The position numbers and the translations under genes were made by a program. This document shows, piece by piece, positions 47,928 to 64,000 of a stretch of 64,000 bases of DNA. The notes under the pieces were generated by a model. It was not told the DNA's origin. It did no database searches and worked only from the letters and a program-made list of their open reading frames with translations. The stretch lies in NCBI RefSeq assembly GCF_988242995.1, contig NZ_OZ547043.1. One strand, given 5' to 3'. How positions within the stretch are numbered: position 1 is the first letter of the stretch; each line of letters starts with the position of its first letter.

Positions 47928-48479
47928 TTAATATATATCAGAAGCAGGCAGGCTGGAGGATTTCTGCACAAGTCCGGTACACGTTTGACGCTGATAGTGT
48001 TGATACTTCCGTAATGCGATGCGGTAATTGTTGGTGCTGGTGGTGGGCAGCCACGGGGCGAGGATTTCATCAAGGAAACCGTCCTGCAGCGGATCGAGGG
48101 AAATATTTTGCTCGTGTAGATGATTCCCCAAACGGCGCAAACGAACGACATATTCACGCACCGTACCTGGGCTCATTTCAGTTTGCTCAAAAAGAAATTG
48201 CTTAAAGCCGATAATATCGAAAAAATCACTCTGCGTTTTGCAATGTAAATCACCGCAAAATCGGCACAATGCCGCCCATGATTTTTGTTCCGTTTGCCAG
48301 CCATTTTCATCAAGCAGCGCGTCCAGGCGGGAAATCTCGATTTTATTCACTATTTTGCCGTCGCGAACGAGGGTAATGCGATCGAGTAATTTACGGCAAT
48401 GCGCGCAATGAGTCTGGCTGTGTTTAAAGTCTTTAAGATAGCGGCTTAATGGCCGTCTTTTCAGGTGCTGCACCATCAT
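47928..48479 (-). CDS. fliZ: regulator FliZ (183 aa)
   Basis: ORF track 47928..48515; start set at MMVQHLKRRPL; directly downstream of fliA. Confidence 0.92.
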   Translation of the reverse strand: MMVQHLKRRPLSRYLKDFKHSQTHCAHCRKLLDRITLVRDGKIVNKIEISRLDALLDENGWQTEQKSWAALCRFCGDLHCKTQSDFFDIIGFKQFLFEQTEMSPGTVREYVVRLRRLGNHLHEQNISLDPLQDGFLDEILAPWLPTTSTNNYRIALRKYQHYQRQTCTGLVQKSSSLPASDIY

Positions 48480-48524
48480 TAAGAACTCCTGGTAGTCAAA
48501 GTTAAAGTGCGGCATTTACTGACG

Positions 48525-49244
48525 TTATAACTTACCCAGTTTAGTGCGTAACCGTTTAATAGCCTGGCTGTGTAACTGACTGACCCGCGATTCCCCGACC
48601 TCCAGCACCGCGCCAATCTCTTTGAGATTCAGCTCTTCCTGGTAATAGAGGGTTAATACCAGTTTTTCGCGCTCCGGCAACGTTTCGATGGCTTCCATCA
48701 CCCGCTGACGCAGATTACTGTCCAGCAGTTGTTGTAGCGGGTTTTCTCGCTGATGATCATCAGTAACCAGTTCGATGCTATCGCCGTGCTCTTCGCGCCA
48801 CTCATCGTAGGAGAAGAGCTGGCTGTTATTGGTGTCGAGCAACATTTGGCGATAATCGGCAATATCGATCCCTAAACGTTCCGCTACCTCAGTTTCCGTG
48901 GCGTTGCGGCCAAGTTCCTGCTCCAGTTGCCCTATTGCCTGTGCCACTTCACGCGCGTTGCGTCGCACGCTGCGCGGCACCCAGTCACGGCTGCGAAGTT
49001 CATCCAGCATAGCGCCACGGATACGCTGCACTGCGTAAGTTGTAAATGCCGTTCCTTGTAGGGCGTCATAGCGTTCGACGGCATTAAGTAACCCAATGCC
49101 GCCCGCCTGTAGCAGATCGTCAAGTTCCACGCTCGCGGGCAGTCGAACCTGCAGGCGCAATGCTTCGTGACGCACCAGCGGGACATAACGCTGCCATAGC
49201 GAGTGTTTATCCATTACACCTTCAGCGGTATAGAGTGAATTCAC
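48525..49244 (-). CDS. fliA: flagellar sigma factor FliA (sigma28, 239 aa)
   Basis: ORF track; sigma70-family regions 2 and 4 recognisable. Confidence 0.96.
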   Translation of the reverse strand: MNSLYTAEGVMDKHSLWQRYVPLVRHEALRLQVRLPASVELDDLLQAGGIGLLNAVERYDALQGTAFTTYAVQRIRGAMLDELRSRDWVPRSVRRNAREVAQAIGQLEQELGRNATETEVAERLGIDIADYRQMLLDTNNSQLFSYDEWREEHGDSIELVTDDHQRENPLQQLLDSNLRQRVMEAIETLPEREKLVLTLYYQEELNLKEIGAVLEVGESRVSQLHSQAIKRLRTKLGKL

Positions 49245-49371
49245 GATAAACAGCCCTGCGTTATATGAGTTATCGGCATGATTATCCGTTTCTGCAGGGT
49301 TTTTAATCGGACGATTAGTGGGTGAAATGAGGGGTTATTTGGGGGTTACCGGTAAATTGCGGGCAGAATAA

Positions 49372-50077
49372 ATATCCTCCGGCATAGCCGGAGGTTTTTC
49401 AAATGCGCCTGTAAGGCTCTGTTACCAGCCGCGCCCTAACAGGCGCATACGATCTGACATTTGCATTCAACTTCGTTACTTACGGCCCGTAAACGGGCTG
49501 CCCGGATATGGAATCGATAACTGCTCCCCCATTTTATCCTCTTCAAGCTGGTGCTTTATGTAGTCACGTATCTTCGCCGTGTTCTTACCCACCGTATCGA
49601 CATAGTACCCTCGGCACCAGAACTCCCTGTTTCTGTATTTGAATTTCAAATCCCCAAACTGCTCGTAAAGCATCAGACTGCTTTTCCCTTTCAGATATCC
49701 CATAAAGCCGGATACGCTCATTTTGGGTGGGATTTCCACAAGCATATGGATATGATCTGCGCAGCACTCTGCTTCCAGAATCCGTACGCTTTTCCACTCA
49801 CACAGCTTTCTCAAAATACTGCCTATCGCCCTACGCTTCTCTCCGTAAAACGCCAGTCTTCGGTATTTCGGCGCAAAAACTATGTGATATTTACAGTTCC
49901 AGCGGGTGTGCGCTAAGCTCTTTTCGTCCCCCATTGGGACCCCCTTTTGATTTCTTGTTTGACACTTGCAGTTGCCAGACCGCAAGGTGTTTTAACAAAT
50001 CAAAAGGGGTTTTAATAACTGGCTCAAAGCTGAAAGCTTTCCGGAACCCCCAGCCTAGCTGGGGGTTTTCTGTGCAC
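49372..50077 (-). mobile_element. IS200-family insertion sequence (IS200/IS605 group) in the fliA-fliC intergenic region
   Basis: intact 152-aa tnpA matching IS200 TnpA as recalled; terminal hairpin aacccccagcctagctgggggtt at 50045-50067; ends estimated from the canonical ~707-bp element, about +/-30 bp uncertain. Confidence 0.8.
49476..49934 (-). CDS. tnpA: IS200 transposase TnpA (HUH/Y1 ssDNA transposase, 152 aa)
   Basis: ORF track 49476..49985; start at MGDEKSLAHTRWNCKYHIVFAPKYRR; HxH motif (DHIHMLVEIPP) and C-terminal catalytic Tyr region. Confidence 0.92.
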   Translation of the reverse strand: MGDEKSLAHTRWNCKYHIVFAPKYRRLAFYGEKRRAIGSILRKLCEWKSVRILEAECCADHIHMLVEIPPKMSVSGFMGYLKGKSSLMLYEQFGDLKFKYRNREFWCRGYYVDTVGKNTAKIRDYIKHQLEEDKMGEQLSIPYPGSPFTGRK

Positions 50078-50108
50078 AAAAAACCCCGCCGGTGGCGGGG
50101 GTTGAGCG
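50078..50108 (-). terminator. rho-independent terminator of fliC
   Basis: minus strand ccccgccaccggcgggg followed by TTTTTT, 12 nt after fliC stop. Confidence 0.85.
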
Positions 50109-50119
50109 ATAAGTGTAAA

Positions 50120-51583
50120 TTAACGCAGCAGAGACAGTACGTTCTGCGTGGTCTGGTTAGCCTGCGCCAGAACAGAGGTACCCGCTTGTTGCAGGATCTG
50201 CGCACGAGACATGTTAGACACTTCGGTCGCGTAGTCAGCATCTTCGATACGGCTACGGGCAGAAGACAGGTTGTTTACGGTGTTGCCAAGGTTGGTGATA
50301 GCAGAGTCGAAACGGTTTTGTACTGCACCGAGGTCAGAACGCAGATTGTCAACTTTAGCCAATGCTTTGTCGATAGTTTCGAGCGGGTTGGTGGTAGATT
50401 GCAACGATTTTGCTGCATCTTCGTTTACCAGAATCGGGCTACCACCTTCTGATTTGCTCAGATACATGACTTTATTGTTACCAGAAGCAGTCTCCGTTAT
50501 CGTTTTACCATCTGCACTAACATCGTAAGTTGCACCGTTAACAACTAACGTGCTTCCTGTTTTCTTAGCTGCATTGAGATCAAGATCGGAAAGTGTGGCA
50601 GCCTTGTTATCAACTTTGGTTGTCGTATAAAGGCCAGCGCTATTTTTGTAAACTGTCTCACTCGTAATCAAAGAAGCTTTTTTGTCAGCATCTTTCACAG
50701 TAAATGTCACTGACTTACCATCAATTTCTGCAGAATATACACCATTCCCATTGCCATCCGCTGCAGTTGTTGTTGTGAATTCAACTCCATTAAACGTGAA
50801 TTTATCATTCTGTGCTTTATTCTTAGCCGCTGCTGCGAGTGCTGTAGCATCAATCCCTGTACCAGCTATGTTTGTGTCAGATTTAGTTGTCAGTGAACCA
50901 TCTGCTGCACTAACAAAAATATCATTCCCTGTAGTATCTTTAACAGCTCCGCTATCTACGTTAACAGTATAAGCATCACCGCCAACATCATAGTTATCAG
51001 TACCTGTCGCTTTAAATTTAGAAATCAGGTCACTGCCAGTTGCTTTCTGCGCGCCATCGATATTAAAACCGTCCAGGCCGAGAGTTTTCGCATCAATTTT
51101 TGCCAGATTGATAGTGATGGTTTCACCATCATTAGCACCAACCTGAATTTTCATTTCATTATTTTCAGCAAGGACTTTCACGCCGTTAAACTGAGTTTGC
51201 TCAGATACACGGTCAATTTCTTCCAGACGTTGAGTAATTTCAGCCTGGATAGAAGAAAGATCGCTGTCAGAGTTAGTACCGTTAGTTGCCTGAACAGTCA
51301 GTTCACGTACACGCTGCAGGTTGTTGTTAATTTCATTCAGCGCACCTTCAGTGGTCTGCGCAACAGAAATACCATCATTCGCGTTACGGGAAGCCTGAGT
51401 CAGACCTTTAATATTTGCTGTAAAACGGTTAGCAATCGCCTGACCTGCTGCGTCATCTTTAGCACTGTTAATACGCAGGCCAGAAGAGAGACGTTCAATG
51501 GCGGAGCTCAGAGAAGACTGAGATTTGTTCAGGTTATTCTGGGTCAACAGCGACAGGCTGTTTGTATTAATGACTTGTGCCAT
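50120..51583 (-). CDS. fliC: flagellin FliC (487 aa); conserved D0/D1 termini with variable central domain
   Basis: ORF track; N-terminus MAQVINTNSLSLLTQNNL and C-terminus ...QNVLSLLR typical of enterobacterial flagellin. Confidence 0.96.
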   Translation of the reverse strand: MAQVINTNSLSLLTQNNLNKSQSSLSSAIERLSSGLRINSAKDDAAGQAIANRFTANIKGLTQASRNANDGISVAQTTEGALNEINNNLQRVRELTVQATNGTNSDSDLSSIQAEITQRLEEIDRVSEQTQFNGVKVLAENNEMKIQVGANDGETITINLAKIDAKTLGLDGFNIDGAQKATGSDLISKFKATGTDNYDVGGDAYTVNVDSGAVKDTTGNDIFVSAADGSLTTKSDTNIAGTGIDATALAAAAKNKAQNDKFTFNGVEFTTTTAADGNGNGVYSAEIDGKSVTFTVKDADKKASLITSETVYKNSAGLYTTTKVDNKAATLSDLDLNAAKKTGSTLVVNGATYDVSADGKTITETASGNNKVMYLSKSEGGSPILVNEDAAKSLQSTTNPLETIDKALAKVDNLRSDLGAVQNRFDSAITNLGNTVNNLSSARSRIEDADYATEVSNMSRAQILQQAGTSVLAQANQTTQNVLSLLR

Positions 51584-51652
51584 GATCTTTTCCTTATCAA
51601 TTACAACTTGATGTTATTGGGCTGTTGCCCACGGTTTCTCACCGTACCCCTT

Positions 51653-51679
51653 GTATCGGCACCTGAATTTCGAACTTTA
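51653..51679 (-). promoter_or_regulatory. sigma28 class 3 promoter of fliC
   Basis: minus strand TAAAGTTC-N11-GCCGATAC about 70 nt upstream of fliC ATG. Confidence 0.75.
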
Positions 51680-51772
51680 GAAAATTTTAGTTTCTCTCCT
51701 GTTTTTTCTTAACGGCTGAAATATCCGTAATATACAACTCTACTCTGCGCATCATCTTCGTGAATCAACTAT

Positions 51773-51799
51773 TAAACTTTGCGCACAAATTGCCGATAA
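51773..51799 (+). promoter_or_regulatory. sigma28 promoter of fliDST
   Basis: TAAACTTT-N11-GCCGATAA about 40 nt upstream of fliD ATG. Confidence 0.75.
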
Positions 51800-51837
51800 C
51801 CCGCTTATCTACTGTTTGCAATCAAAAGGAATTAGGT

Positions 51838-53250
51838 ATGGCTTCATTTACATCTCTTGGCGTTGGTTCGAATCTGCCGCTGGATACATTGCTAAACAAC
51901 CTGACCATCGCTGAAAAAAAACGCTTAAACCCAATTACTCAGCAACAGAGTGACAATACCGCACGTCTGACAGCCTATGGCACATTAAAAAGTGCATTAG
52001 AAAAATTCCAGACTGCAAATACTGCGTTAAATAAAGCCGATCTGTTCAAAAGCACTACCGTTACCAGTAGCAATGAAGACCTTAAAGTTTCCACCGAAGC
52101 AGGTGCTGCCCCCGGTATCTATACCATCAGCGTAACCCAACTGGCGCAGGCGCAATCTTTACGAACTGATTCCCCGACAATCATTGCATCAACAAAAGAT
52201 GCACTGGGTGATGAGTCATCAGATACACGCACAATAAAAATTACCCAAGACGGTCGTAAAGAGCCGCTGGAAATCAAGCTCAATAAAGATCAGACGTCAT
52301 TGGATGAGATCAGCAAAGCCATTAACGATGCCGATAGTGGAATTTCCGCTAGTATCGTTAAAGTCAAAGATGGTAACTATCAATTGGTATTGACCGCCAG
52401 TGAAGGTCTGGCCAATAAAATGACCATATCTGTTGAGGGTGACAGTAAATTAAATGATCTGCTGGCTTATGACAGCAAGACCAACACCGGGAATATGAAG
52501 GAACTGGTTAACGCGCAAAATGCACAGCTAAACGTTAACGGTATCGATATTGAACGTTCAAGTAACAAAATTACCGATGCTCCTCAGGGAGTGACTCTCG
52601 ATTTGACCAAAAAAGTCACTGACGTCCGGGTCACGGTGACAAAAAGCAACGATAAAGCAACCGAAGCAATTAAAGGCTGGGTGGATTCATATAACTCCCT
52701 CATTGACACCTTTAACACCCTGACAAAATATAAAGAAGTAGACCCAGGTGCTGAAGCACAAGATAAAAATAATGGTGCACTTCTCGGAGACAGCGTTGTA
52801 CGTACAATTCAAAGCGGCATCCGCGCACAATTTGCAAACGGTGCCAGCGACAGTGCCTTCAAAACATTAAACGAGATCGGGATTAAGCAGGACGGCACGA
52901 CGGGTAAGCTGAAAATTGATGATGATAAACTCAAAAAAGTCCTGAATGAAAATACAGCATCCGTACGTGAATTGCTGGTAGGCGATGGTAAAGAAACAGG
53001 AATTACCACCAAAATTGCCACCGAGGTAAAAGGTTACCTTGCCGATGATGGCATTATTGATAGCGCACAGGACAGTATTAACGCCACACTGAAAAAACTG
53101 ACCAAACAGTATCTATCCGTCAGTGCCAGCATTGATGACACCGTGGCGCGTTACACTGCACAGTTTACGCAATTAGATACCATGATGAGCAAACTGAATA
53201 ACACCAGTACCTATCTCAGCCAACAATTTACTGCAATGAGTAATTCCTGA
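51838..53250 (+). CDS. fliD: flagellar filament cap protein FliD (about 470 aa)
   Basis: ORF track 51760..53250; start set at ATG 51838 (MASFTSLGVGSN) with AAAGGA RBS. Confidence 0.93.
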   Translation: MASFTSLGVGSNLPLDTLLNNLTIAEKKRLNPITQQQSDNTARLTAYGTLKSALEKFQTANTALNKADLFKSTTVTSSNEDLKVSTEAGAAPGIYTISVTQLAQAQSLRTDSPTIIASTKDALGDESSDTRTIKITQDGRKEPLEIKLNKDQTSLDEISKAINDADSGISASIVKVKDGNYQLVLTASEGLANKMTISVEGDSKLNDLLAYDSKTNTGNMKELVNAQNAQLNVNGIDIERSSNKITDAPQGVTLDLTKKVTDVRVTVTKSNDKATEAIKGWVDSYNSLIDTFNTLTKYKEVDPGAEAQDKNNGALLGDSVVRTIQSGIRAQFANGASDSAFKTLNEIGIKQDGTTGKLKIDDDKLKKVLNENTASVRELLVGDGKETGITTKIATEVKGYLADDGIIDSAQDSINATLKKLTKQYLSVSASIDDTVARYTAQFTQLDTMMSKLNNTSTYLSQQFTAMSNS

Positions 53251-53264
53251 TCACGGAGGTCAGC

Positions 53265-53675
53265 ATGTATACCGCGAGCGGCTCAAAAGCCTATGCACAA
53301 ATTGGCGTCGAAAGCGCCGTAATGAGCGCCAGCCAGCAGCAGCTGGTCACCATGCTATTTGATGGAGTGCTGAGCGCACTGGTTAGAGCACGCCTGTTTA
53401 TGCAGGACAACAATCAGCAAGGCAAAGGCGTCTCTTTGTCAAAAGCGATCAACATCATTGAGAACGGACTGCGGGTGAGTCTTGATGAAGAGAGCAAAGA
53501 CGAATTAACCCAAAACTTGATTGCTCTTTATAGCTATATGGTCAGGCGCTTGCTGCAAGCCAATTTACGCAACGATGTCTCCGCAGTCGAAGAAGTGGAA
53601 GCATTAATGCGCAATATTGCCGATGCCTGGAAAGAGTCGTTACTCTCCCCTTCTTTGATTCAGGACCCAGTCTGA
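53265..53675 (+). CDS. fliS: flagellin-specific chaperone FliS (136 aa)
   Basis: ORF track. Confidence 0.95.
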
Positions 53676-54040
53676 TGAACCACGCACCGCATTTGTATTT
53701 CGCCTGGCAACAACTCGTCGAAAAAAGCCAGCTCATGTTACGCCTGGCAACAGAAGAACAATGGGACGAACTCATCGCCAGCGAGATGGCGTATGTGAAT
53801 GCGGTGCAGGAGATTGCACATCTGACTGAAGAGATTGACCCGTCCACCACGATGCAGGAGCAGCTCCGCCCGATGCTGCGCCTGGTTCTCGACAACGAAA
53901 GCAAGGTAAAGCAGTTATTACAGATTCGGATGGATGAACTGGCGAAACTGGTCGGTCAGTCATCGGTGCAAAAATCGGTGTTAAGTGCCTATGGTGATCA
54001 GGGCGGCTTTGTGCTGGCTCCGCAGGATAACCTCTTTTGA
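53675..54040 (+). CDS. fliT: FliD chaperone / anti-FlhDC factor FliT (121 aa)
   Basis: ORF track; start overlaps fliS stop. Confidence 0.93.
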
Positions 54041-54117
54041 ATCTGAACGAGTCGATGGCTCGCGAATAATCCGATTACGGCTACGCTTCTAATGTTCCCC
54101 TTGAATGGAGTCGAAGA

Positions 54118-55605
54118 ATGCGTAATCCCACGCTGTTACAATGTTTTCACTGGTATTACCCGGAAGGCGGTAAGCTCTGGCCTGAACTGGCCGAGCGCGC
54201 CGACGGTTTTAATGATATTGGTATCAATATGGTCTGGTTGCCGCCCGCCTATAAAGGCGCATCGGGCGGGTATTCGGTCGGCTACGACTCCTATGATTTA
54301 TTTGATTTAGGCGAGTTTGATCAGAAAGGCAGCATCCCTACTAAATATGGCGATAAAGCACAACTGCTGGCCGCCATTGACGCCCTGAAACGTAATGACA
54401 TTGCGGTGCTGTTGGACGTGGTAGTCAACCACAAAATGGGCGCGGATGAAAAAGAAGCTATTCGCGTGCAGCGTGTAAATGCTGATGACCGTACGCAAAT
54501 TGACGAAGAAATCATTGAGTGTGAAGGCTGGACGCGTTACACCTTCCCCGCCCGTGCCGGGCAATACTCGCAGTTTATCTGGGATTTCAAATGTTTTAGC
54601 GGTATCGACCATATCGAAAACCCTGATGAAGATGGCATATTTAAAATTGTTAACGACTACACCGGCGAAGGCTGGAACGATCAGGTTGATGATGAATTAG
54701 GTAATTTCGATTATCTGATGGGCGAGAATATCGATTTTCGCAATCATGCCGTGACGGAAGAGATTAAATACTGGGCGCGCTGGGTGATGGAACAAACGCA
54801 ATGCGACGGTTTTCGTCTTGATGCGGTCAAACATATTCCGGCGTGGTTTTATAAAGAGTGGATCGAACACGTACAGGAAGTTGCGCCAAAGCCGCTGTTT
54901 ATTGTGGCAGAGTACTGGTCGCATGAAGTCGATAAACTGCAAACGTATATTGATCAGGTGGAAGGCAAAACCATGCTGTTCGATGCGCCGCTGCAGATGA
55001 AATTCCATGAAGCATCGCGCATGGGGCGCGACTACGACATGACGCAGATTTTCACGGGTACATTAGTGGAAGCCGATCCTTTCCACGCCGTGACGCTCGT
55101 TGCCAATCACGACACCCAACCATTGCAAGCCCTCGAAGCACCGGTCGAACCGTGGTTTAAACCGCTGGCGTATGCTCTAATTTTGTTGCGGGAAAATGGC
55201 GTTCCTTCGGTGTTCTATCCGGACCTCTACGGTGCGCATTACGAAGATGTCGGTGGTGACGGGCAAACCTATCCGATAGATATGCCAATAATCGAACAGC
55301 TTGATGAGTTAATTCTCGCCCGTCAGCGTTTCGCCCACGGTGTACAGACGTTATTTTTCGACCATCCGAACTGCATTGCCTTTAGCCGCAGTGGCACTGA
55401 CGAATATCCCGGCTGCGTGGTGGTCATGTCGAACGGGGATGATGGCGAAAAAACCATTCATCTGGGAGAGAATTACGGCAATAAAACCTGGCGTGATTTT
55501 CTGGGGAATCGGCAAGAGAGCGTAGTGACCGACGAAAACGGCGAAGCGACCTTCTTTTGCAACGGCGGCAGCGTCAGCGTGTGGGTTATCGAAGAGGTGA
55601 TTTAA
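54118..55605 (+). CDS. amyA: cytoplasmic alpha-amylase AmyA (495 aa)
   Basis: ORF track; GH13 motifs ([14 protein letters not shown]). Confidence 0.94.
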
Positions 55606-55632
55606 ATTCATCCCCGGCGGCAAGCCGGGGAG
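55606..55632. terminator. terminator hairpin between convergent amyA and yedD
   Basis: tccccggc-ggcaa-gccgggga. Confidence 0.7.
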
Positions 55633-55638
55633 ATTTCA

Positions 55639-56055
55639 TTACGGCAGTGGCGTCGGTAACGGCGCTTTATCCAGCGCGGCGGCACACTCTGCCGTCGGGC
55701 GATCCACACGCTCCATCGTCATACCATCGTACTCAATGGTGTTACCGTCACGCTCAACCTCGTACAGCTCACGTTTTACGGTAACGTTAGTGAGATCATC
55801 AGACATCAATGTCAACTTGCCCGGCACGGCAATCACCCGCTGCCACTGACGGCAATCCAGGGTATCGCCCTCTTTAGTGACAATCAGGCTGCCTATCGCT
55901 TCCGGACTGACCAGCGCACGTTGCGGCCCTTTGGTCTGCCAGTAGCCCGCCAGCCAGTCCGGCGCGGGGGTTTTCACGACATTGTTATAGTTTTCGACTT
56001 CGGCACAGCCCGCCAGCAACATGAGCGCGCTTGCAATTGCGAGTTTTTTCATCAT
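55639..56055 (-). CDS. yedD: lipoprotein YedD (about 137 aa)
   Basis: ORF track; lipobox LLAGC. Confidence 0.85.
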   Translation of the reverse strand: MMKKLAIASALMLLAGCAEVENYNNVVKTPAPDWLAGYWQTKGPQRALVSPEAIGSLIVTKEGDTLDCRQWQRVIAVPGKLTLMSDDLTNVTVKRELYEVERDGNTIEYDGMTMERVDRPTAECAAALDKAPLPTPLP

Positions 56056-56238
56056 TCGTCCTGCATGAGAAGAAAAGAGGATTGTGGCATTAAAGCCCTG
56101 ATGTCGCCAGCCTTTCCAGGTTCAGAGAGAAATTTGATCTAACTATTATTTTTGTGAATTATTACCCCGAAAATAAATTTGCATGATGTATGATTCGCGA
56201 TTCTTGTTTCAAACCTTCTGAGTTCAGAGGCTACATTC

Positions 56239-57444
56239 ATGTCATGGCAGCAATTCAAACACGCCTGGTTGATTAAATTCTGGGCACCCATCCCTGCGGT
56301 CATCGCGGCGGGTATTCTCTCCACTTACTATTTTGGCATTACTGGCACCTTTTGGGCTGTCACGGGTGAATTTACCCGTTGGGGCGGCCAGCTCCTGCAG
56401 CTGTTTGGCGTCCATGCTGAAGAGTGGGGTTATTTTAAAATTATCCATCTGGAAGGATCGCCATTAACCCGCATCGACGGGATGATGATCCTCGGCATGT
56501 TTGGCGGCTGCTTTGCCGCAGCGCTGTGGGCCAACAATGTCAAACTGCGCATGCCACGCAGCCGTATCCGCATTATGCAGGCCATTATTGGCGGTATTAT
56601 CGCTGGTTTTGGCGCGCGTCTGGCAATGGGCTGTAACCTGGCGGCGTTCTTTACCGGTATTCCTCAGTTCTCGCTGCATGCCTGGTTCTTTGCCATCGCC
56701 ACTGCCATTGGTTCATGGTTTGGCGCACGCTTTACCCTGCTGCCCATCTTCCGTATTCCCGTGAAAATGCAGAAAGTTTCTGCCGCCTCACCGCTGACGC
56801 AAAAACCGGATCAGGCGCGGCGTCGTTTTCGTCTCGGGATGCTGGTCTTTTTCGGTATGCTGGGCTGGGCGCTGCTCACGGCGATGAACCAACCAAAACT
56901 GGGGCTGGCAATGCTGTTTGGCGTCGGCTTTGGTTTACTGATTGAACGTGCGCAAATCTGCTTTACTTCGGCGTTCCGCGATATGTGGATCACCGGACGT
57001 ACCCATATGGCGAAAGCAATCATTATCGGTATGGCGGTGAGTGCCATCGGGATCTTCAGTTACGTACAGTTAGGCGTTGAACCCAAAATCATGTGGGCGG
57101 GACCAAACGCGGTAATTGGTGGTTTACTGTTTGGTTTTGGCATCGTGCTGGCAGGCGGCTGCGAAACCGGCTGGATGTACCGCGCGGTAGAAGGCCAGGT
57201 GCACTACTGGTGGGTCGGTCTGGGCAATGTGATCGGCTCGACGATTCTGGCGTATTACTGGGATGATTTCGCTCCGGCGCTGGCCACCGACTGGGACAAA
57301 ATCAACCTGCTGAAAACCTTTGGCCCGATGGGTGGCCTGCTGGTGACATATTTGCTGTTGTTTACTGCGCTGATGTTGATTATCGGCTGGGAAAAACGCT
57401 TCTTCCGCCGTGCGGCACCGCAGACTGCTAAGGAGATCGCATGA
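56239..57444 (+). CDS. yedE: YedE/YeeE-family inner membrane transporter (selenium/thiosulfate-related), 401 aa
   Basis: ORF track; polytopic membrane protein; translationally coupled to yedF. Confidence 0.9.
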   Translation: MSWQQFKHAWLIKFWAPIPAVIAAGILSTYYFGITGTFWAVTGEFTRWGGQLLQLFGVHAEEWGYFKIIHLEGSPLTRIDGMMILGMFGGCFAAALWANNVKLRMPRSRIRIMQAIIGGIIAGFGARLAMGCNLAAFFTGIPQFSLHAWFFAIATAIGSWFGARFTLLPIFRIPVKMQKVSAASPLTQKPDQARRRFRLGMLVFFGMLGWALLTAMNQPKLGLAMLFGVGFGLLIERAQICFTSAFRDMWITGRTHMAKAIIIGMAVSAIGIFSYVQLGVEPKIMWAGPNAVIGGLLFGFGIVLAGGCETGWMYRAVEGQVHYWWVGLGNVIGSTILAYYWDDFAPALATDWDKINLLKTFGPMGGLLVTYLLLFTALMLIIGWEKRFFRRAAPQTAKEIA

Positions 57445-57674
57445 AAAATATCGTTCCTGATTACCGCCTTGATATGGTGGGTGAACCCTGCCCTTATCCG
57501 GCAGTCGCAACTCTTGAGGCGATGCCGCAGTTAAAAAAAGGGGAAATCCTGGAAGTGGTGAGCGACTGTCCACAGTCGATCAATAATATTCCACTGGATG
57601 CGCGTAATCACGGCTATACGGTGCTGGATATTCAGCAAGACGGGCCGACCATTCGTTATTTAATTCAGAAGTAA
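57441..57674 (+). CDS. yedF: TusA-like sulfurtransferase-fold protein YedF (77 aa)
   Basis: ORF track; conserved CPxP motif (EPCPYP). Confidence 0.9.
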   Translation: MKNIVPDYRLDMVGEPCPYPAVATLEAMPQLKKGEILEVVSDCPQSINNIPLDARNHGYTVLDIQQDGPTIRYLIQK

Positions 57675-57780
57675 TCCCTCATTCCCGCTGTGGCCCACAG
57701 CGGGAACATCGTTGCCTCTGACACATAGATTTTACCCGCCCCCTCTCCTATTCTTTTCAGTATGATCTCAGGAGGTTTCT

Positions 57781-58449
57781 ATGTGTGGACGCTTTGCCCA
57801 ATCCCAAACGCGTGAAGATTACCTTGCGCTTCTCGCGGAAGATATTGAACGCGATATTCCCTACGATCCCGAACCCATTGGCAGATACAACGTCGCGCCG
57901 GGAACCAAAGTTCTTCTGCTCAGTGAACGTGATGAACACCTTCATCTGGATCCGGTTTTCTGGGGATATGCTCCCGGATGGTGGGATAAACCGCCGCTGA
58001 TTAACGCCCGCGTAGAAACTGCGGCCACCAGTCGTATGTTTAAACCGCTCTGGCAACATGGTCGGGCAATCTGTTTTGCCGATGGCTGGTTTGAGTGGAA
58101 AAAAGAAGGCGACAAAAAACAGCCTTATTTTATCTATCGCGCTGATGGACAACCTGTTTTTATGGCCGCGATAGGTAGCACACCGTTTGAGCGCGGTGAC
58201 GAAGCCGAAGGATTTTTAATTGTCACTGCAGCAGCAGACCAGGGTCTGGTAGATATTCATGACCGCCGCCCGCTGGTTCTGTCGCCAGAAGCTGCACAGG
58301 AATGGATGCGGCAAGAGATTGGCGGTAAAGAAGCATCAGAAATTGCTACCAACGGCTGTGTGCCAGCAAACCAGTTCACCTGGCACCCGGTATCGCGCGC
58401 GGTGGGTAATATCAAAAACCAGGGAGCGGAGTTAATTCAACCGGTTTGA
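57781..58449 (+). CDS. yedK: SOS-response-associated peptidase (SRAP) YedK, abasic-site DNA-protein crosslinking enzyme (222 aa)
   Basis: ORF track; N-terminal MCGRF with catalytic Cys2. Confidence 0.92.
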   Translation: MCGRFAQSQTREDYLALLAEDIERDIPYDPEPIGRYNVAPGTKVLLLSERDEHLHLDPVFWGYAPGWWDKPPLINARVETAATSRMFKPLWQHGRAICFADGWFEWKKEGDKKQPYFIYRADGQPVFMAAIGSTPFERGDEAEGFLIVTAAADQGLVDIHDRRPLVLSPEAAQEWMRQEIGGKEASEIATNGCVPANQFTWHPVSRAVGNIKNQGAELIQPV

Positions 58450-58843
58450 TAAGCCAGGAGACTATTGATCAATAATACTGCGTCATAAGAAATCTCTATT
58501 AGACAATAGTAGACGCTCCTTCCACATGCGCCACAAGAAACCTCTATTCCAGTGACACAATTACGCCTGATTATTTCCCTAGCCCGGAATATGAATAAAA
58601 ACATCAACAAAGATTAAATTATTCAAACGTTACTGTTGCGTCTGCGGTCGTAGCAACATCCGACGTGGTGATGAGTGTTAAAAGAGACACTCTGATGTTC
58701 AGAGGGGTTATCGCGTTTACGGATCGTGGATGGCAGAAAACTTTCAGGATCAGGTATCCATTTTAAACCAGAAATTGAGTGAGTTTGCCCCATCCATGCC
58801 CCAAGCGGTGAGATTGGAAGTAATTAACAACAGGTTACAAAAC

Positions 58844-59158
58844 CTACACCTGCATGGACATCACTTCCTGATACGCCGCCACCAGCTTATTACGCACCTG
58901 AATCCCCATTTGCATAGAAACTGAGGCTTTTTGCATATCGGTCATCACATCGTTTAACGCCACGCCGGGTTCACCGAGGGTGAATTTTTCTGCCTGCGTG
59001 CGGGCAGCTGTTTGTGTATCGCTAATGCGATCGAGCGCGGCGTGCAGCTGCCCGGCAAAACTAATGGTCGGTTGCGGCAGTGAATCCTGCGCACGCGCAC
59101 TCATCGCCGTAGCCTGTAACTGGCTGATAACCCCTTCAATCCCCTGTATCGCTGACAT
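58844..59158 (-). CDS. fliE: flagellar hook-basal body protein FliE (104 aa)
   Basis: ORF track 58844..59188; start set at [10 protein letters not shown]. Confidence 0.93.
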
Positions 59159-59372
59159 TTTCGTCTCCTGGATAATTTCTGGTAACAAAGCCTACCAGTA
59201 AGTCAATAAGATAAAGGCGCTAAATAACAACAAAAAAACGGGTTTATTGGCGGATAGAAAAAAACGAAAGCACAAATAATGGCAGCGTCAATTTTTCGAG
59301 TTTGCTGACCCGGGAGTGAGTCTTGTTCCACTTTGCCAATAACGCCGTCCATAATCAGCCACGAGGTGCGCG

Positions 59373-62697
<3,325 letters not shown>

Positions 62698-62698
<1 letters not shown>

Positions 62699-64000
62699 TG
62701 ACCACGCGCCTGACTCGCTGGCTAACCACGCTGGATAACTTTGAAGCCAAAATGGCGCAGTTGCCTGCGGTACGTCGCTACGGGCGATTAACTCGCGCTA
62801 CCGGGCTGGTGCTGGAAGCCACCGGATTACAATTGCCGCTCGGCGCAACCTGTGTCATTGAGCGCCAGAACGGCAGCGAAACGCACGAAGTAGAAAGCGA
62901 AGTCGTTGGCTTTAACGGTCAACGGCTGTTTTTAATGCCGCTGGAGGAAGTCGAAGGTGTCCTGCCCGGCGCGCGTGTTTATGCCAAAAACATTTCGGCA
63001 GAAGGGCTGCAAAGCGGCAAGCAGTTGCCGCTCGGTCCGGCGTTATTAGGTCGTGTTCTGGACGGCAGCGGTAAACCGCTCGATGGCCTCCCCTCCCCCG
63101 ATACGACGGAAACCGGTGCGCTGATTACCCCACCATTTAACCCGTTGCAACGTACACCGATTGAACATGTGCTGGACACCGGCGTGCGCCCAATCAATGC
63201 CCTGCTTACCGTTGGGCGTGGGCAGCGTATGGGGCTGTTTGCCGGGTCCGGCGTTGGTAAAAGTGTGCTGCTGGGGATGATGGCACGTTACACCCGCGCC
63301 GATGTCATTGTCGTGGGTTTGATTGGTGAACGCGGACGCGAAGTAAAAGATTTTATTGAGAATATCCTCGGTGCCGAAGGGCGTGCACGCTCCGTGGTGA
63401 TTGCCGCTCCGGCGGATGTCTCTCCGCTTCTGCGAATGCAAGGTGCCGCCTATGCCACGCGAATTGCCGAAGATTTTCGCGATCGTGGTCAGCATGTGTT
63501 GCTGATTATGGACTCCCTCACCCGCTACGCGATGGCCCAGCGTGAAATTGCGCTGGCGATTGGCGAACCACCTGCCACTAAAGGTTATCCACCGTCGGTG
63601 TTTGCCAAATTACCGGCACTGGTCGAGCGTGCCGGAAATGGAATTAGCGGCGGCGGCTCGATTACCGCGTTTTATACCGTGCTCACCGAAGGCGATGACC
63701 AGCAGGACCCCATTGCCGACTCTGCGCGGGCAATCCTCGACGGTCACATTGTGCTGTCTCGCCGACTGGCGGAAGCCGGGCACTATCCGGCTATCGATAT
63801 TGAAGCGTCGATCAGCCGCGCAATGACGGCGTTGATCAGTGAGCAACATTACGCGCGAGTGCGCACCTTCAAACAGCTGTTGTCGAGTTTTCAGCGTAAC
63901 CGCGATCTGGTTAGCGTCGGCGCGTATGCCAAAGGCAGCGATCCGATGCTCGACAAAGCCATCGCCCTGTGGCCGCAGCTGGAGGGCTATTTGCAACAAG
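62698..64000 (+). CDS. fliI: flagellar export ATPase FliI, N-terminal about 434 codons (3' end beyond window)
   Basis: ATG at 62698 overlapping fliH stop; hand translation [11 protein letters not shown]...; Walker A GSGVGKS near 63245; open to window end. Confidence 0.93.

What the first reader, a model, noticed from the sequence alone, without database searches (positions are those of the whole stretch)
49376..49400. Plus-strand terminator-like hairpin with no upstream plus-strand gene, near the fliA-proximal IS200 end
cctccggcatagccggagg followed by TTTTTC reads as an intrinsic terminator on the plus strand, yet the nearest upstream genes (fliA, fliZ) are both on the minus strand. It lies within about 10 bp of the estimated IS200 end and may be the subterminal hairpin of the IS right end (a TnpA recognition structure) rather than a host terminator. 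A second 10-bp inverted repeat (atgcgcctgt ... acaggcgcat, 49402-49449) lies just inside. Which side of the IS boundary these structures belong to determines the exact insertion point relative to the fliA promoter.
Basis: seen in the sequence. Interest (0 to 1): 0.3.

Follow-up and report, generated by a model that had tools for sequence, protein, structure and literature searches.

The report
IS200 right-end hairpin, not host terminator
The terminator-looking hairpin upstream of fliA is the built-in right-end hairpin of an IS200 insertion sequence, the structure its transposase is expected to grip; it is an ordinary, already known kind of feature and not a host regulatory element.

Summary
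The hairpin is real: an 8-bp stem with a 3-nt loop at 49376-49394, followed by TTTTT at 49395-49399. It belongs to the insertion sequence, not the host. It starts 9 nt inside the right end (RE) of a 711-bp IS200 copy (about 49367-50077, tnpA on the minus strand). The same hairpin is present in IS200 copies at unrelated E. coli loci. It is absent from IS-free fliA-fliC intergenic regions (strain S30, O157:H7).

In 75 IS200-group copies from Enterobacterales, Vibrio and Clostridia, the same 8-bp/3-nt hairpin sits about 84 nt after the tnpA stop. It pairs in 99.6% of cells, and 4 of the 8 stem pairs show compensatory changes. Its stem resembles the left-end (LE) hairpin of the same element.

The plus-strand "T-run" is the complement of a conserved A-run just 5' of the hairpin on the transposon's active strand. 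That A-run covaries with the RE tip in the pattern of IS608 guide/cleavage-site pairing.

The IS inserted, without target duplication, right after the T-tract of the fliC terminator and 122 nt upstream of the fliA start codon. Everything between that terminator and fliA is intact. A terminator role on either strand is plausible but secondary and untested. This is a known kind of feature and of low interest.

The parts
49367..50077 (-). IS200 element, 711 bp. The top strand (tnpA sense) is the window minus strand. The RE is at low coordinates and the LE at high coordinates. The boundaries could shift by +1 or +2 nt because of the A/T run.
   Evidence: Alignment with the IS-free S30 site and three IS200 copies at other loci. 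There is no target duplication: the empty site reads GGGGTTTTTT|CTGCCC on the minus strand. The best E. coli copy is 99.2% identical.
49376..49394 (-). RE subterminal hairpin, the feature of the finding. Top strand: CCTCCGGC-TAT-GCCGGAGG.
   Evidence: It is conserved with compensatory changes in 75 IS200-group copies.
49395..49399 (-). A-run (AAAAA) immediately 5' of the hairpin foot on the top strand, which reads as the 'T-run' on the + strand. It is the putative guide sequence; the four bases next to the foot are 49395-49398.
   Evidence: It is nearly invariant at both ends of the family. It covaries with the RE tip. The analogy is to IS608 guide sequences.
49367..49375 (-). RE tip, top strand ATATTTATT. 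It holds the putative cleavage-site bases: TTAT at 49368-49371, or the pentanucleotide TTATT at 49367-49371.
   Evidence: It is shared by all E. coli copies up to the flank junction. A3 columns 36, 37 and 39 pair with guide columns 10, 9 and 12.
49402..49449 (-). Second inverted repeat (10-bp arms), inside the IS in the tnpA 3' region. It overlaps two smaller hairpins that are conserved across the family.
   Evidence: The long-range form is seen only in the enterobacterial/Vibrio lineage. The variants seen in other copies stay paired (G-T) only on the minus strand.
49476..49934 (-). tnpA, a 152-aa Y1 HUH transposase.
   Evidence: ORF; Pfam Y1_Tnp, 7e-37; PDB relatives 2EC2 (1.8e-23) and IS608 TnpA (2.6e-19).
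49944..50067 (-). tnpA 5'UTR / art200 region. [quoted passage not shown]
   Evidence: Rfam, 146 bits against a gathering score of 56. Described in PMC4513863.
50047..50065 (-). LE subterminal hairpin, top strand CCCCCAGC-TAG-GCTGGGGG. It is preceded by GAAAA (50066-50070) and lies 12 nt from the LE tip.
   Evidence: In Salmonella IS200 this hairpin (nt 12-34) is a bi-directional terminator (PMC4513863).
50078..50100 (-). fliC intrinsic terminator: hairpin 50084-50100 plus a six-T tract (50083-50078 on the minus strand). The T-tract is the insertion target and is preserved.
   Evidence: It is present and contiguous with the fliA upstream sequence in IS-free S30 and O157:H7.
49245..49366 (-). 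The 122 nt of host fliA upstream sequence between the fliA start codon and the IS. It is uninterrupted relative to IS-free genomes.

Best explanation
The hairpin is the subterminal right-end palindrome of an IS200 insertion sequence. IS200-family elements transpose as single-stranded DNA. On the top strand (here the window minus strand), the Y1 HUH transposase TnpA binds a small hairpin near each end and cuts a few bases away. Here the RE hairpin (CCTCCGGC-TAT-GCCGGAGG) lies 9 nt from the RE tip. The LE hairpin (CCCCCAGC-TAG-GCTGGGGG) lies 12 nt from the LE tip. The A-run just 5' of each hairpin foot, which reads as the T-run on the plus strand, most likely acts as the guide that pairs with the T-rich cleavage and target sites: TTAT(T) at the RE tip and the T-tract of the fliC terminator next to the LE. 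The IS membership and the conservation are shown here. TnpA binding and the guide role are inferred from homology with IS608 and from covariation. A by-product of this design is that both end hairpins look like intrinsic terminators on the bottom strand. The RE hairpin, followed by AUAUUUAUU, may also end the tnpA transcript before it reaches the fliA promoter.
For: 1. Membership in the IS. The hairpin is present at the same distance from the end in IS200 copies at three unrelated E. coli loci. It is absent from the IS-free fliA-fliC intergenic regions of S30 and O157:H7.
2. Transposase. The adjacent gene is a Y1_Tnp transposase homologous to IS608 TnpA.
3. Conservation. Of 84 IS200-group copies, 75 have an 8-bp/3-nt hairpin about 84 nt after the tnpA stop. 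On these, 99.6% of cells pair, 4 of 8 pairs show double changes and 82 cells are compensatory. The covariation score is 0.446, against 0.10 in shuffles. Slid controls pair in 33-51% of cells.
4. The LE hairpin behaves the same way: 99.4% paired, with 6 of 8 pairs showing double changes.
5. LE and RE stems of one element are more alike than shuffled pairs: 2.35 vs 3.05 differences, with 0 of 10000 shuffles as low.
6. G-T wobbles are almost absent, about 2 of 528 cells. This fits a DNA hairpin, or one needed on both strands.
7. Guide reading. After the stem pairs, the strongest non-stem covariation is three-way. It links guide position -3, the first base 3' of the foot, and tip position +5: A/A/T in 46 sequences, G/G/C in 8, C/A/G in 2. 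This mirrors the IS608 triplets T-4.A-34*A-10 and C-3.G-35*G-9. The predicted guide-tip pairs are 89-95% paired, with 13 double changes. The variants occur in several separate TnpA clades.
8. There are no terminal inverted repeats and no target duplication.
9. GC skew places the top strand on the lagging-strand template.
Against: There is no biochemical test of IS200 TnpA binding to this hairpin, and none was found in the papers I could read. The IS200 hairpins are perfect palindromes, whereas the IS608 ones are imperfect with a bulged base. The comparative alignments were anchored on the detected hairpin, so they lean towards the structure. The sequences are related, so shuffle statistics overstate independence. 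The guide/tip register was partly chosen after seeing the covariation, and 5-7 of 66 sequences do not fit each predicted contact. The exact cleavage position (after ...TTAT or ...TTATT) cannot be fixed from sequence.
Confidence: 0.85

Rival explanations
1. The hairpin works mainly at the RNA level as a bidirectional intrinsic terminator carried by the IS. On the minus strand it ends the tnpA transcript before the fliA promoter. On the plus strand it stops transcription entering the IS from the RE flank. TnpA recognition would be secondary or absent.
For: It is terminator-like on both strands, with a strong stem of -15.5/-15.9 kcal/mol. The equivalent LE hairpin of Salmonella IS200 is an experimentally shown bi-directional terminator that stops about 85% of impinging transcripts (PMC4513863 and PMC5435999). 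In strains 64.1 and LF82 the RE hairpin and its T-run sit 8 nt after the yebQ stop codon, where the native terminator used to be.
Against: A purely RNA role does not explain three observations. First, LE and RE stems co-vary within an element. Second, the A-run covaries with the RE tip in the IS608 pattern. Third, G-U pairs are almost never used. The family mechanism requires a hairpin at each end (PMC3201880 and PMC6006769). PMC7290912 notes that the terminator idea was early speculation, later superseded by the mechanistic role. The two roles are not mutually exclusive.
Confidence: 0.1
2. It is a host intrinsic terminator for an unannotated plus-strand transcript upstream of fliA, and the IS merely landed next to it.
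For: It has canonical terminator form on the plus strand: a GC-rich 8-bp stem followed by TTTTT.
Against: It is absent from IS-free fliA upstream regions. Host similarity in thousands of E. coli genomes stops at about 49372. The hairpin travels with IS200 to unrelated loci. No plus-strand gene lies upstream.
Confidence: 0.01
3. It is a REP-type or other host repeated palindrome, or a chance palindrome.
For: It is a small GC-rich palindrome in an intergenic region. REPs resemble IS200/IS605 end hairpins (PMC3333891).
Against: The bases 5' of the hairpin are GAAAAA, not the GTAG/GTGG that defines REPs. The window holds a single copy. The position is fixed relative to tnpA across 75 elements. None of 200 shuffles fold as well.
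Confidence: 0.01

Closest known systems
IS200 (Salmonella/E. coli; annotated 'IS200/IS605-like element IS200C family' in RefSeq)
   Same: The size is 711 bp against the published 707 bp. There is a single tnpA. The LE hairpin is at nt 13-31 (published nt 12-34). The region matches the STnc490/art200 family. There is no target duplication. E. coli copies are 92-99% identical.
   Different: Nothing structural differs. Only the site is new: no fliC-fliA insertion was found in 5,426 complete E. coli genomes. The RE hairpin is not described in the IS200 papers I could read, which deal with the LE.
IS608 right-end imperfect palindrome (IPR) with guide GR and cleavage site CR (Helicobacter pylori, IS200/IS605 family)
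   Same: It is a subterminal hairpin on the top strand. It lies about 10 nt from the RE cleavage site (9 nt here). The 4 nt 5' of the foot relate to the terminal bases of the RE and to the target flanking the LE. There is a triplet-like three-way covariation. The transposase is a homologous Y1 HUH enzyme.
   Different: The IS200 hairpins are perfect 8-bp palindromes with 3-nt loops, not imperfect ones. The LE spacing is 12 nt instead of 19. The guide is AAAA and the target is a T-run, instead of AAAG and TTAC. IS200 has no tnpB. None of this has been tested biochemically for IS200.
IS200 left-end hairpin (bi-directional Rho-independent terminator, nt 12-34)
   Same: It has the same format: GAAAA, an 8-bp stem, a 3-nt loop, then the second arm of the 8-bp stem. 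The sequence is related (CCCCCAGC vs CCTCCGGC). On the bottom strand it reads as a hairpin followed by a T-run.
   Different: It sits at the other end of the element. Its 3' context differs (TTCCGG vs ATATTTATT). Termination has been measured only for the LE.
REP sequences and their RAYT/TnpA-REP proteins
   Same: They are short GC-rich hairpins with a 5' tetranucleotide, recognised by a Y1 HUH protein.
   Different: REPs carry GTAG/GTGG, occur in hundreds of solo copies and are not the ends of a mobile unit. This hairpin has an A-run and occurs only as part of IS200.

Membership tests
IS200/IS605 family: right-end subterminal hairpin | A Y1 HUH transposase (TnpA) is encoded by the element. 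| tested here: met
   Pfam Y1_Tnp at 7e-37. PDB relatives include IS608 TnpA at 2.6e-19.
IS200/IS605 family: right-end subterminal hairpin | The hairpin is part of the mobile unit: it moves with the element and is absent from empty sites. | tested here: met
   Present at three other loci and absent from the IS-free sites of S30 and O157:H7.
IS200/IS605 family: right-end subterminal hairpin | Hairpins occur at both ends on the same strand (not terminal inverted repeats), with related sequence. | tested here: met
   LE is CCCCCAGC-TAG-GCTGGGGG and RE is CCTCCGGC-TAT-GCCGGAGG, both on the minus strand. LE and RE arms co-vary within elements. Both are supported by compensatory changes.
IS200/IS605 family: right-end subterminal hairpin | No target-site duplication on insertion. 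| tested here: met
   The occupied site equals the empty site plus exactly 711 bp.
IS200/IS605 family: right-end subterminal hairpin | The hairpin lies a short fixed distance from the RE cleavage site (10 nt in IS608). | tested here: met
   9 nt from the foot to the RE junction here, and 9-10 nt across the family. The cleavage itself was not observed.
IS200/IS605 family: right-end subterminal hairpin | A tetranucleotide guide 5' of the foot pairs with the terminal bases of the RE and with the target flanking the LE. | tested here: inconclusive
   A guide of AAAA against an RE tip of TTAT(T) and an LE flank of TTTT is consistent. The predicted contacts are 89-95% paired, with 13 double changes arising in several clades. 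However, the register was partly chosen after the fact, and there are exceptions.
IS200/IS605 family: right-end subterminal hairpin | Insertion occurs 3' of a specific short target abutting the LE. | tested here: met
   58 of 61 LE flanks have at least 4 T in the last 6 nt. Here the flank is the T6 tract of the fliC terminator.
IS200/IS605 family: right-end subterminal hairpin | The active top strand lies on the lagging-strand template. | tested here: met
   Plus-strand GC skew is -0.04 to -0.06 over 0-48 kb. The minus strand therefore has the leading-strand composition, which is that of the lagging-strand template. This is an inference from composition only.
IS200/IS605 family: right-end subterminal hairpin | TnpA binds the hairpin as ssDNA and cleaves the top strand. 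| not testable with these tools
   This needs EMSA and cleavage assays with purified IS200 TnpA.
Host intrinsic (Rho-independent) terminator | A GC-rich stem-loop followed by a T/U tract. | tested here: met
   One search finds this on both strands.
Host intrinsic (Rho-independent) terminator | It lies downstream of a co-oriented host transcription unit and is part of the host locus. | tested here: not met
   No plus-strand gene lies upstream. The hairpin is absent from IS-free genomes.
REP / BIME | A GTAG or GTGG tetranucleotide 0-2 nt 5' of the hairpin, and many solo copies. | tested here: not met
   The 5' bases are GAAAAA. The window holds a single copy. The REP definition is from PMC6006769.
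Rfam Ysr202 (Yersinia sRNA 202) | A match reaching the family gathering score. | tested here: not met
   27 bits against 315, covering only the last 33 of 282 model positions. The model's stem, CGGCGGGC, lacks the bases that are invariant in IS200 hairpins.

The most novel reading that the evidence does not exclude
IS200-group elements may home to the T-tract of intrinsic terminators by pairing it with the A-run guide next to their end hairpins. Because that A-run precedes both hairpins on the top strand, both ends read as a hairpin plus T-run on the bottom strand. The element would then carry replacement terminators for the one it displaces, giving a self-insulating design. The covariation seen here would supply the guide/cleavage code for the IS200 group, which could be reprogrammed as was done for IS608.
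Probability: 0.35. Interest if true: 0.4.

Novelty: already known. Interest (0 to 1): 0.15.

Why it matters
It settles the annotation. The hairpin and the neighbouring inverted repeat belong to IS200, so they should not be scored as a host terminator or as a fliA regulatory element. It also fixes the insertion point: directly after the fliC terminator T-tract and 122 nt upstream of the fliA start codon. The whole native sequence between that terminator and fliA is intact, so the insertion is probably neutral for flagellar regulation. More generally, the comparison gives a sequence-level rule for recognising IS200-group ends: GAAAA, an 8-bp stem, a 3-nt loop and the second arm of the stem at both ends, with the LE abutting a T-run.

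Tried and rejected
1. Rfam Ysr202. The partial hit at 49367-49399 at first suggested a Yersinia sRNA ending in an IS1541 right end. I rejected this. The score is 27 bits against a gathering score of 315. The model's stem, CGGCGGGC, lacks the invariant C2 of IS200 hairpins. It is a generic terminator resemblance. A paper search for Ysr202 found nothing relevant.
2. Stem extension. I tried a simple nested extension of the stem, pairing the A-run with the tip as a continuous helix. It did not fit the variants consistently. The IS608-type contact pattern fitted better.
3. The 10-bp repeat at 49402-49449 as a family-wide structure. RNAalifold on 67 right ends instead supports two small local hairpins with covariation. 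The long-range form is limited to the enterobacterial/Vibrio lineage and shows no double changes.
4. The fliA promoter. I tried to place the sigma-28 promoter by eye. A GCCGATAA-like -10 element lies at 49270-49277, but I found no convincing -35 at the expected spacing, so I make no claim about promoter elements.
5. Literature. The He et al. 2015 review, Mahillon & Chandler 1998 and Barabas et al. 2008 are not held. I could not check whether the IS200 RE hairpin or its guide has been explicitly described there.
6. Source genome. A look-up of contigs encoding the identical TnpA returned ten places, none next to fliA or fliC.

Full report
**The observation**

The sequence is as described. CCTCCGGC-ATA-GCCGGAGG occupies 49376-49394 on the plus strand, followed by TTTTT (49395-49399) and C. 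As RNA it folds at -15.5 kcal/mol on the plus strand and -15.9 on the minus strand, with z about -4 and 0 of 200 shuffles as stable. As DNA it folds at about -10 kcal/mol. The consensus scan lists it as terminator-like on both strands. The nearest genes at lower coordinates, fliZ (47928-48515) and fliA (48525-49244), are on the minus strand. The second inverted repeat at 49402-49449 is also real.

**Which side of the IS boundary**

A 1051-bp query across the region matched E. coli genomes in two ways. IS200 copies matched from window 49367 (some from 49361) to about 50083-50106. Host fliA upstream sequence matched only up to about 49372.

I aligned the window with the IS-free fliA-fliC region of strain S30. 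I also aligned it with IS200 copies between rimL and ydcH, between yebQ and htpX, and between a prophage tail-fibre gene and lom.
- All IS copies share the sequence from AATAAATATCCTCCGG... (plus strand) through ...CTGTGCAC and diverge outside it.
- S30 reads ...GCGGGCAG-AAAAAA-CCCCGCCGGTGGCGGGGG..., with no hairpin.
- O157:H7 gives the same result.

The occupied site equals the empty site plus exactly 711 bp, with no duplication. The IS therefore spans 49367-50077. A shift of one or two bases is possible because an A/T run borders both junctions. The hairpin of the finding starts 9 nt inside the right end, and the second repeat is further inside.

**Anatomy of the element**

- tnpA (49476-49934, minus strand) encodes a 152-aa Y1_Tnp protein (Pfam 7e-37). 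It is related to solved IS200-family transposases, including IS608 TnpA.
- The tnpA 5'UTR/art200 region matches Rfam STnc490 at 146 bits.
- On the top strand (window minus strand) the element begins GTGCACAGAAAA-CCCCCAGC-TAG-GCTGGGGG-TTCCGG. This is the LE hairpin, at 50047-50065. In Salmonella IS200 the same hairpin is the nt 12-34 bi-directional terminator (PMC4513863).
- The element ends TTGAAAAA-CCTCCGGC-TAT-GCCGGAGG-ATATTTATT.
- The two hairpins have the same format and differ by two compensated positions and one loop base.

**Comparative evidence**

A scan of one genome per species with the TnpA protein returned 80 loci, from Enterobacterales, Vibrio, Desulfovibrio, Sutterella and many Clostridia.
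- Together with the window and the three E. coli IS200 loci, 75 of the 84 copies show an 8-bp/3-nt hairpin about 84 nt after the tnpA stop. Several of the rest end at a contig edge before the right end.
- These hairpins have 20 different stem sequences.
- On the 40-nt RE alignment, 99.6% of cells pair, 4 of the 8 pairs have double changes and 82 cells are compensatory. The covariation score is 0.446 against 0.10 in shuffles. Slid controls pair in only 33-51% of cells.
- The LE hairpin gives 99.4% pairing, with 6 of 8 pairs showing double changes.
- Within an element the LE and RE arms are more alike than in shuffled combinations: 2.35 vs 3.05 differences, with 0 of 10000 shuffles as low. This is expected if one protein reads both.
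- G-T pairs are almost never used. That fits a DNA hairpin better than a one-strand RNA structure.

Three caveats apply. The alignments were anchored on the detected hairpins. The sequences are related. The hairpin finder picks the best of about 90 positions per locus. By my own estimate (6/16 to the 8th power, times about 90 positions), an 8/8 stem would arise by chance in only about 3.5% of loci.

**How it most likely works**

In IS608, TnpA binds subterminal hairpins on the top strand. The cleavage sites are recognised by pairing with the four bases 5' of each hairpin foot, not by the protein. The target TTAC lies 19 nt 5' of the LE hairpin, and TCAA lies 10 nt 3' of the RE hairpin. Two base triplets involve the two bases 3' of the RE foot (PMC3201880; PMC6006769).

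The IS200 group has the same layout.
- AAAA precedes both hairpin feet and is nearly invariant.
- The LE flank is T-rich in 58 of 61 cases.
- The RE tip ends TTATT or TTTTT.
- After the stem pairs, the highest mutual information in the RE alignment is a three-way relation between guide position -3, the first base after the foot, and tip position +5. The combinations are A/A/T (46 sequences), G/G/C (8) and C/A/G (2). These are the same combinations as the IS608 triplets T.A*A and C.G*G.
- Applying the IS608 contact pattern gives three predicted contacts. They pair in 89-95% of sequences, with 13 double changes.
- The variant types occur in several separate branches of a TnpA tree.

I therefore read the plus-strand T-run as the complement of the RE guide sequence. 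This step is inference. The register was partly chosen after seeing the data, a few sequences do not fit, and nothing has been tested with IS200 TnpA. GC skew places the top strand on the lagging-strand template, the orientation expected for this family.

**The terminator reading**

It is not wrong in form. Because an A-run precedes both hairpins on the top strand, both read as a hairpin plus T-run on the bottom strand. For the LE hairpin, bi-directional termination has been reported. The RE hairpin is equally strong. It is followed by UUUUUC on the plus strand and AUAUUUAUU on the minus strand.

In strains 64.1 and LF82 an IS200 copy sits with its RE hairpin 8 nt after the yebQ stop codon, where the displaced native terminator used to follow. 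In such contexts the RE may well terminate a host gene. At the present locus there is nothing known on the plus strand to terminate. On the minus strand, the hairpin could stop the weak tnpA transcript before the fliA promoter. I regard this as a plausible secondary role, untested.

**Local consequences**

The IS sits directly after the six-T tract of the fliC terminator (hairpin 50084-50100), which is preserved. It lies 122 nt upstream of the fliA GTG. The sequence from that terminator to fliA is the same as in IS-free genomes. The insertion therefore separates the fliC terminator from the fliA upstream region without interrupting either.

**The second inverted repeat**

It is IS-internal, in the tnpA 3' region. 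Across the family, RNAalifold supports two small hairpins with compensatory changes plus the terminal hairpin. The 10-bp long-range pairing exists only in the enterobacterial/Vibrio lineage, overlaps those two hairpins and shows no double changes. The variants in other E. coli copies keep pairing (G-T) only on the minus strand. Its function is unknown.

**Comparison with what is known**

This is a standard IS200 copy with standard IS200/IS605-family end architecture. The only new element is the site. No complete E. coli genome of 5,426 carries IS200 between fliC and fliA. The open papers I could read describe the LE structures of IS200 but not the RE hairpin. The key reviews were not available. 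[quoted passage not shown] My count of 52 of 61 LE flanks with a GC hairpin agrees.

**Verdict**

This is a known kind of feature and of low interest.

Noticed in passing
window 49367-50100: This IS200 insertion between the fliC terminator and fliA is not present in any of 5,426 complete E. coli genomes; no place covers 80% or more of the 1051-bp junction-spanning query. It parallels the serovar-specific IS200 in the fliB-fliA intergenic region of Salmonella Typhimurium (PMC6415898). This suggests independent insertions upstream of fliA in two genera.
   Followed up: partly
LE flanks of L002-L084 (e.g. L007:261-300, L017:261-300) and window 50078-50100: IS200-group elements almost always sit directly after an intrinsic terminator. 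52 of 61 LE flanks have a GC hairpin of at least 5 bp within the 40 nt next to the LE tip, and 58 of 61 have at least 4 T in the last 6 nt. Places encoding the identical TnpA lie about 190 nt downstream of co-oriented genes such as recA, ccmH and purL.
   Followed up: partly
alignment A3 columns 10, 32, 36 (window 49397, 49375, 49371): There is a three-way covariation between the guide base, the first base after the hairpin foot, and a tip base: A/A/T, G/G/C, C/A/G. It resembles the IS608 base triplets. The variants recur in separate TnpA clades.
   Followed up: yes
L003:300-335 (E. coli 64.1; same site in LF82): An IS200 right end abuts the yebQ stop codon: the TAA is formed by T from the host plus AA at the IS tip. 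The RE hairpin and T-run therefore replace the native yebQ/htpX bidirectional terminator for yebQ.
   Followed up: partly
window 49402-49449; alignment A4 columns 52-67 and 85-100: The tnpA 3' region of IS200-group elements holds two small hairpins with compensatory changes across Proteobacteria and Clostridia. Their function is unknown. In enterobacterial copies they can refold into one 10-bp long-range stem.
   Followed up: partly
L006:345-375, L010:345-375 and L010:1014-1050: The Citrobacter youngae and Enterobacter sp. copies lack the 5' half of the LE hairpin, so their left ends are truncated. In L010 an extra LE-like hairpin (CCTCCCCAGTCAGGCTGGGGG followed by TTTT) lies 10 nt beyond the RE tip, possibly a remnant of an adjacent copy.
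   Followed up: no
L085:470-660 (E. coli O157:H7): In O157:H7 the terminator next to the fliA upstream region is conserved, but it is separated from fliC by about 190 bp that contain REP-like palindromes. The 'fliC terminator' therefore stays with the fliA side of the intergenic region across fliC alleles.
   Followed up: no
window 48001-64000: Plus-strand GC skew changes from about -0.05 (0-48 kb) to -0.01 and then +0.03 in the last 16 kb. This is probably a local effect of gene orientation in the flagellar region. It was not examined.
   Followed up: no
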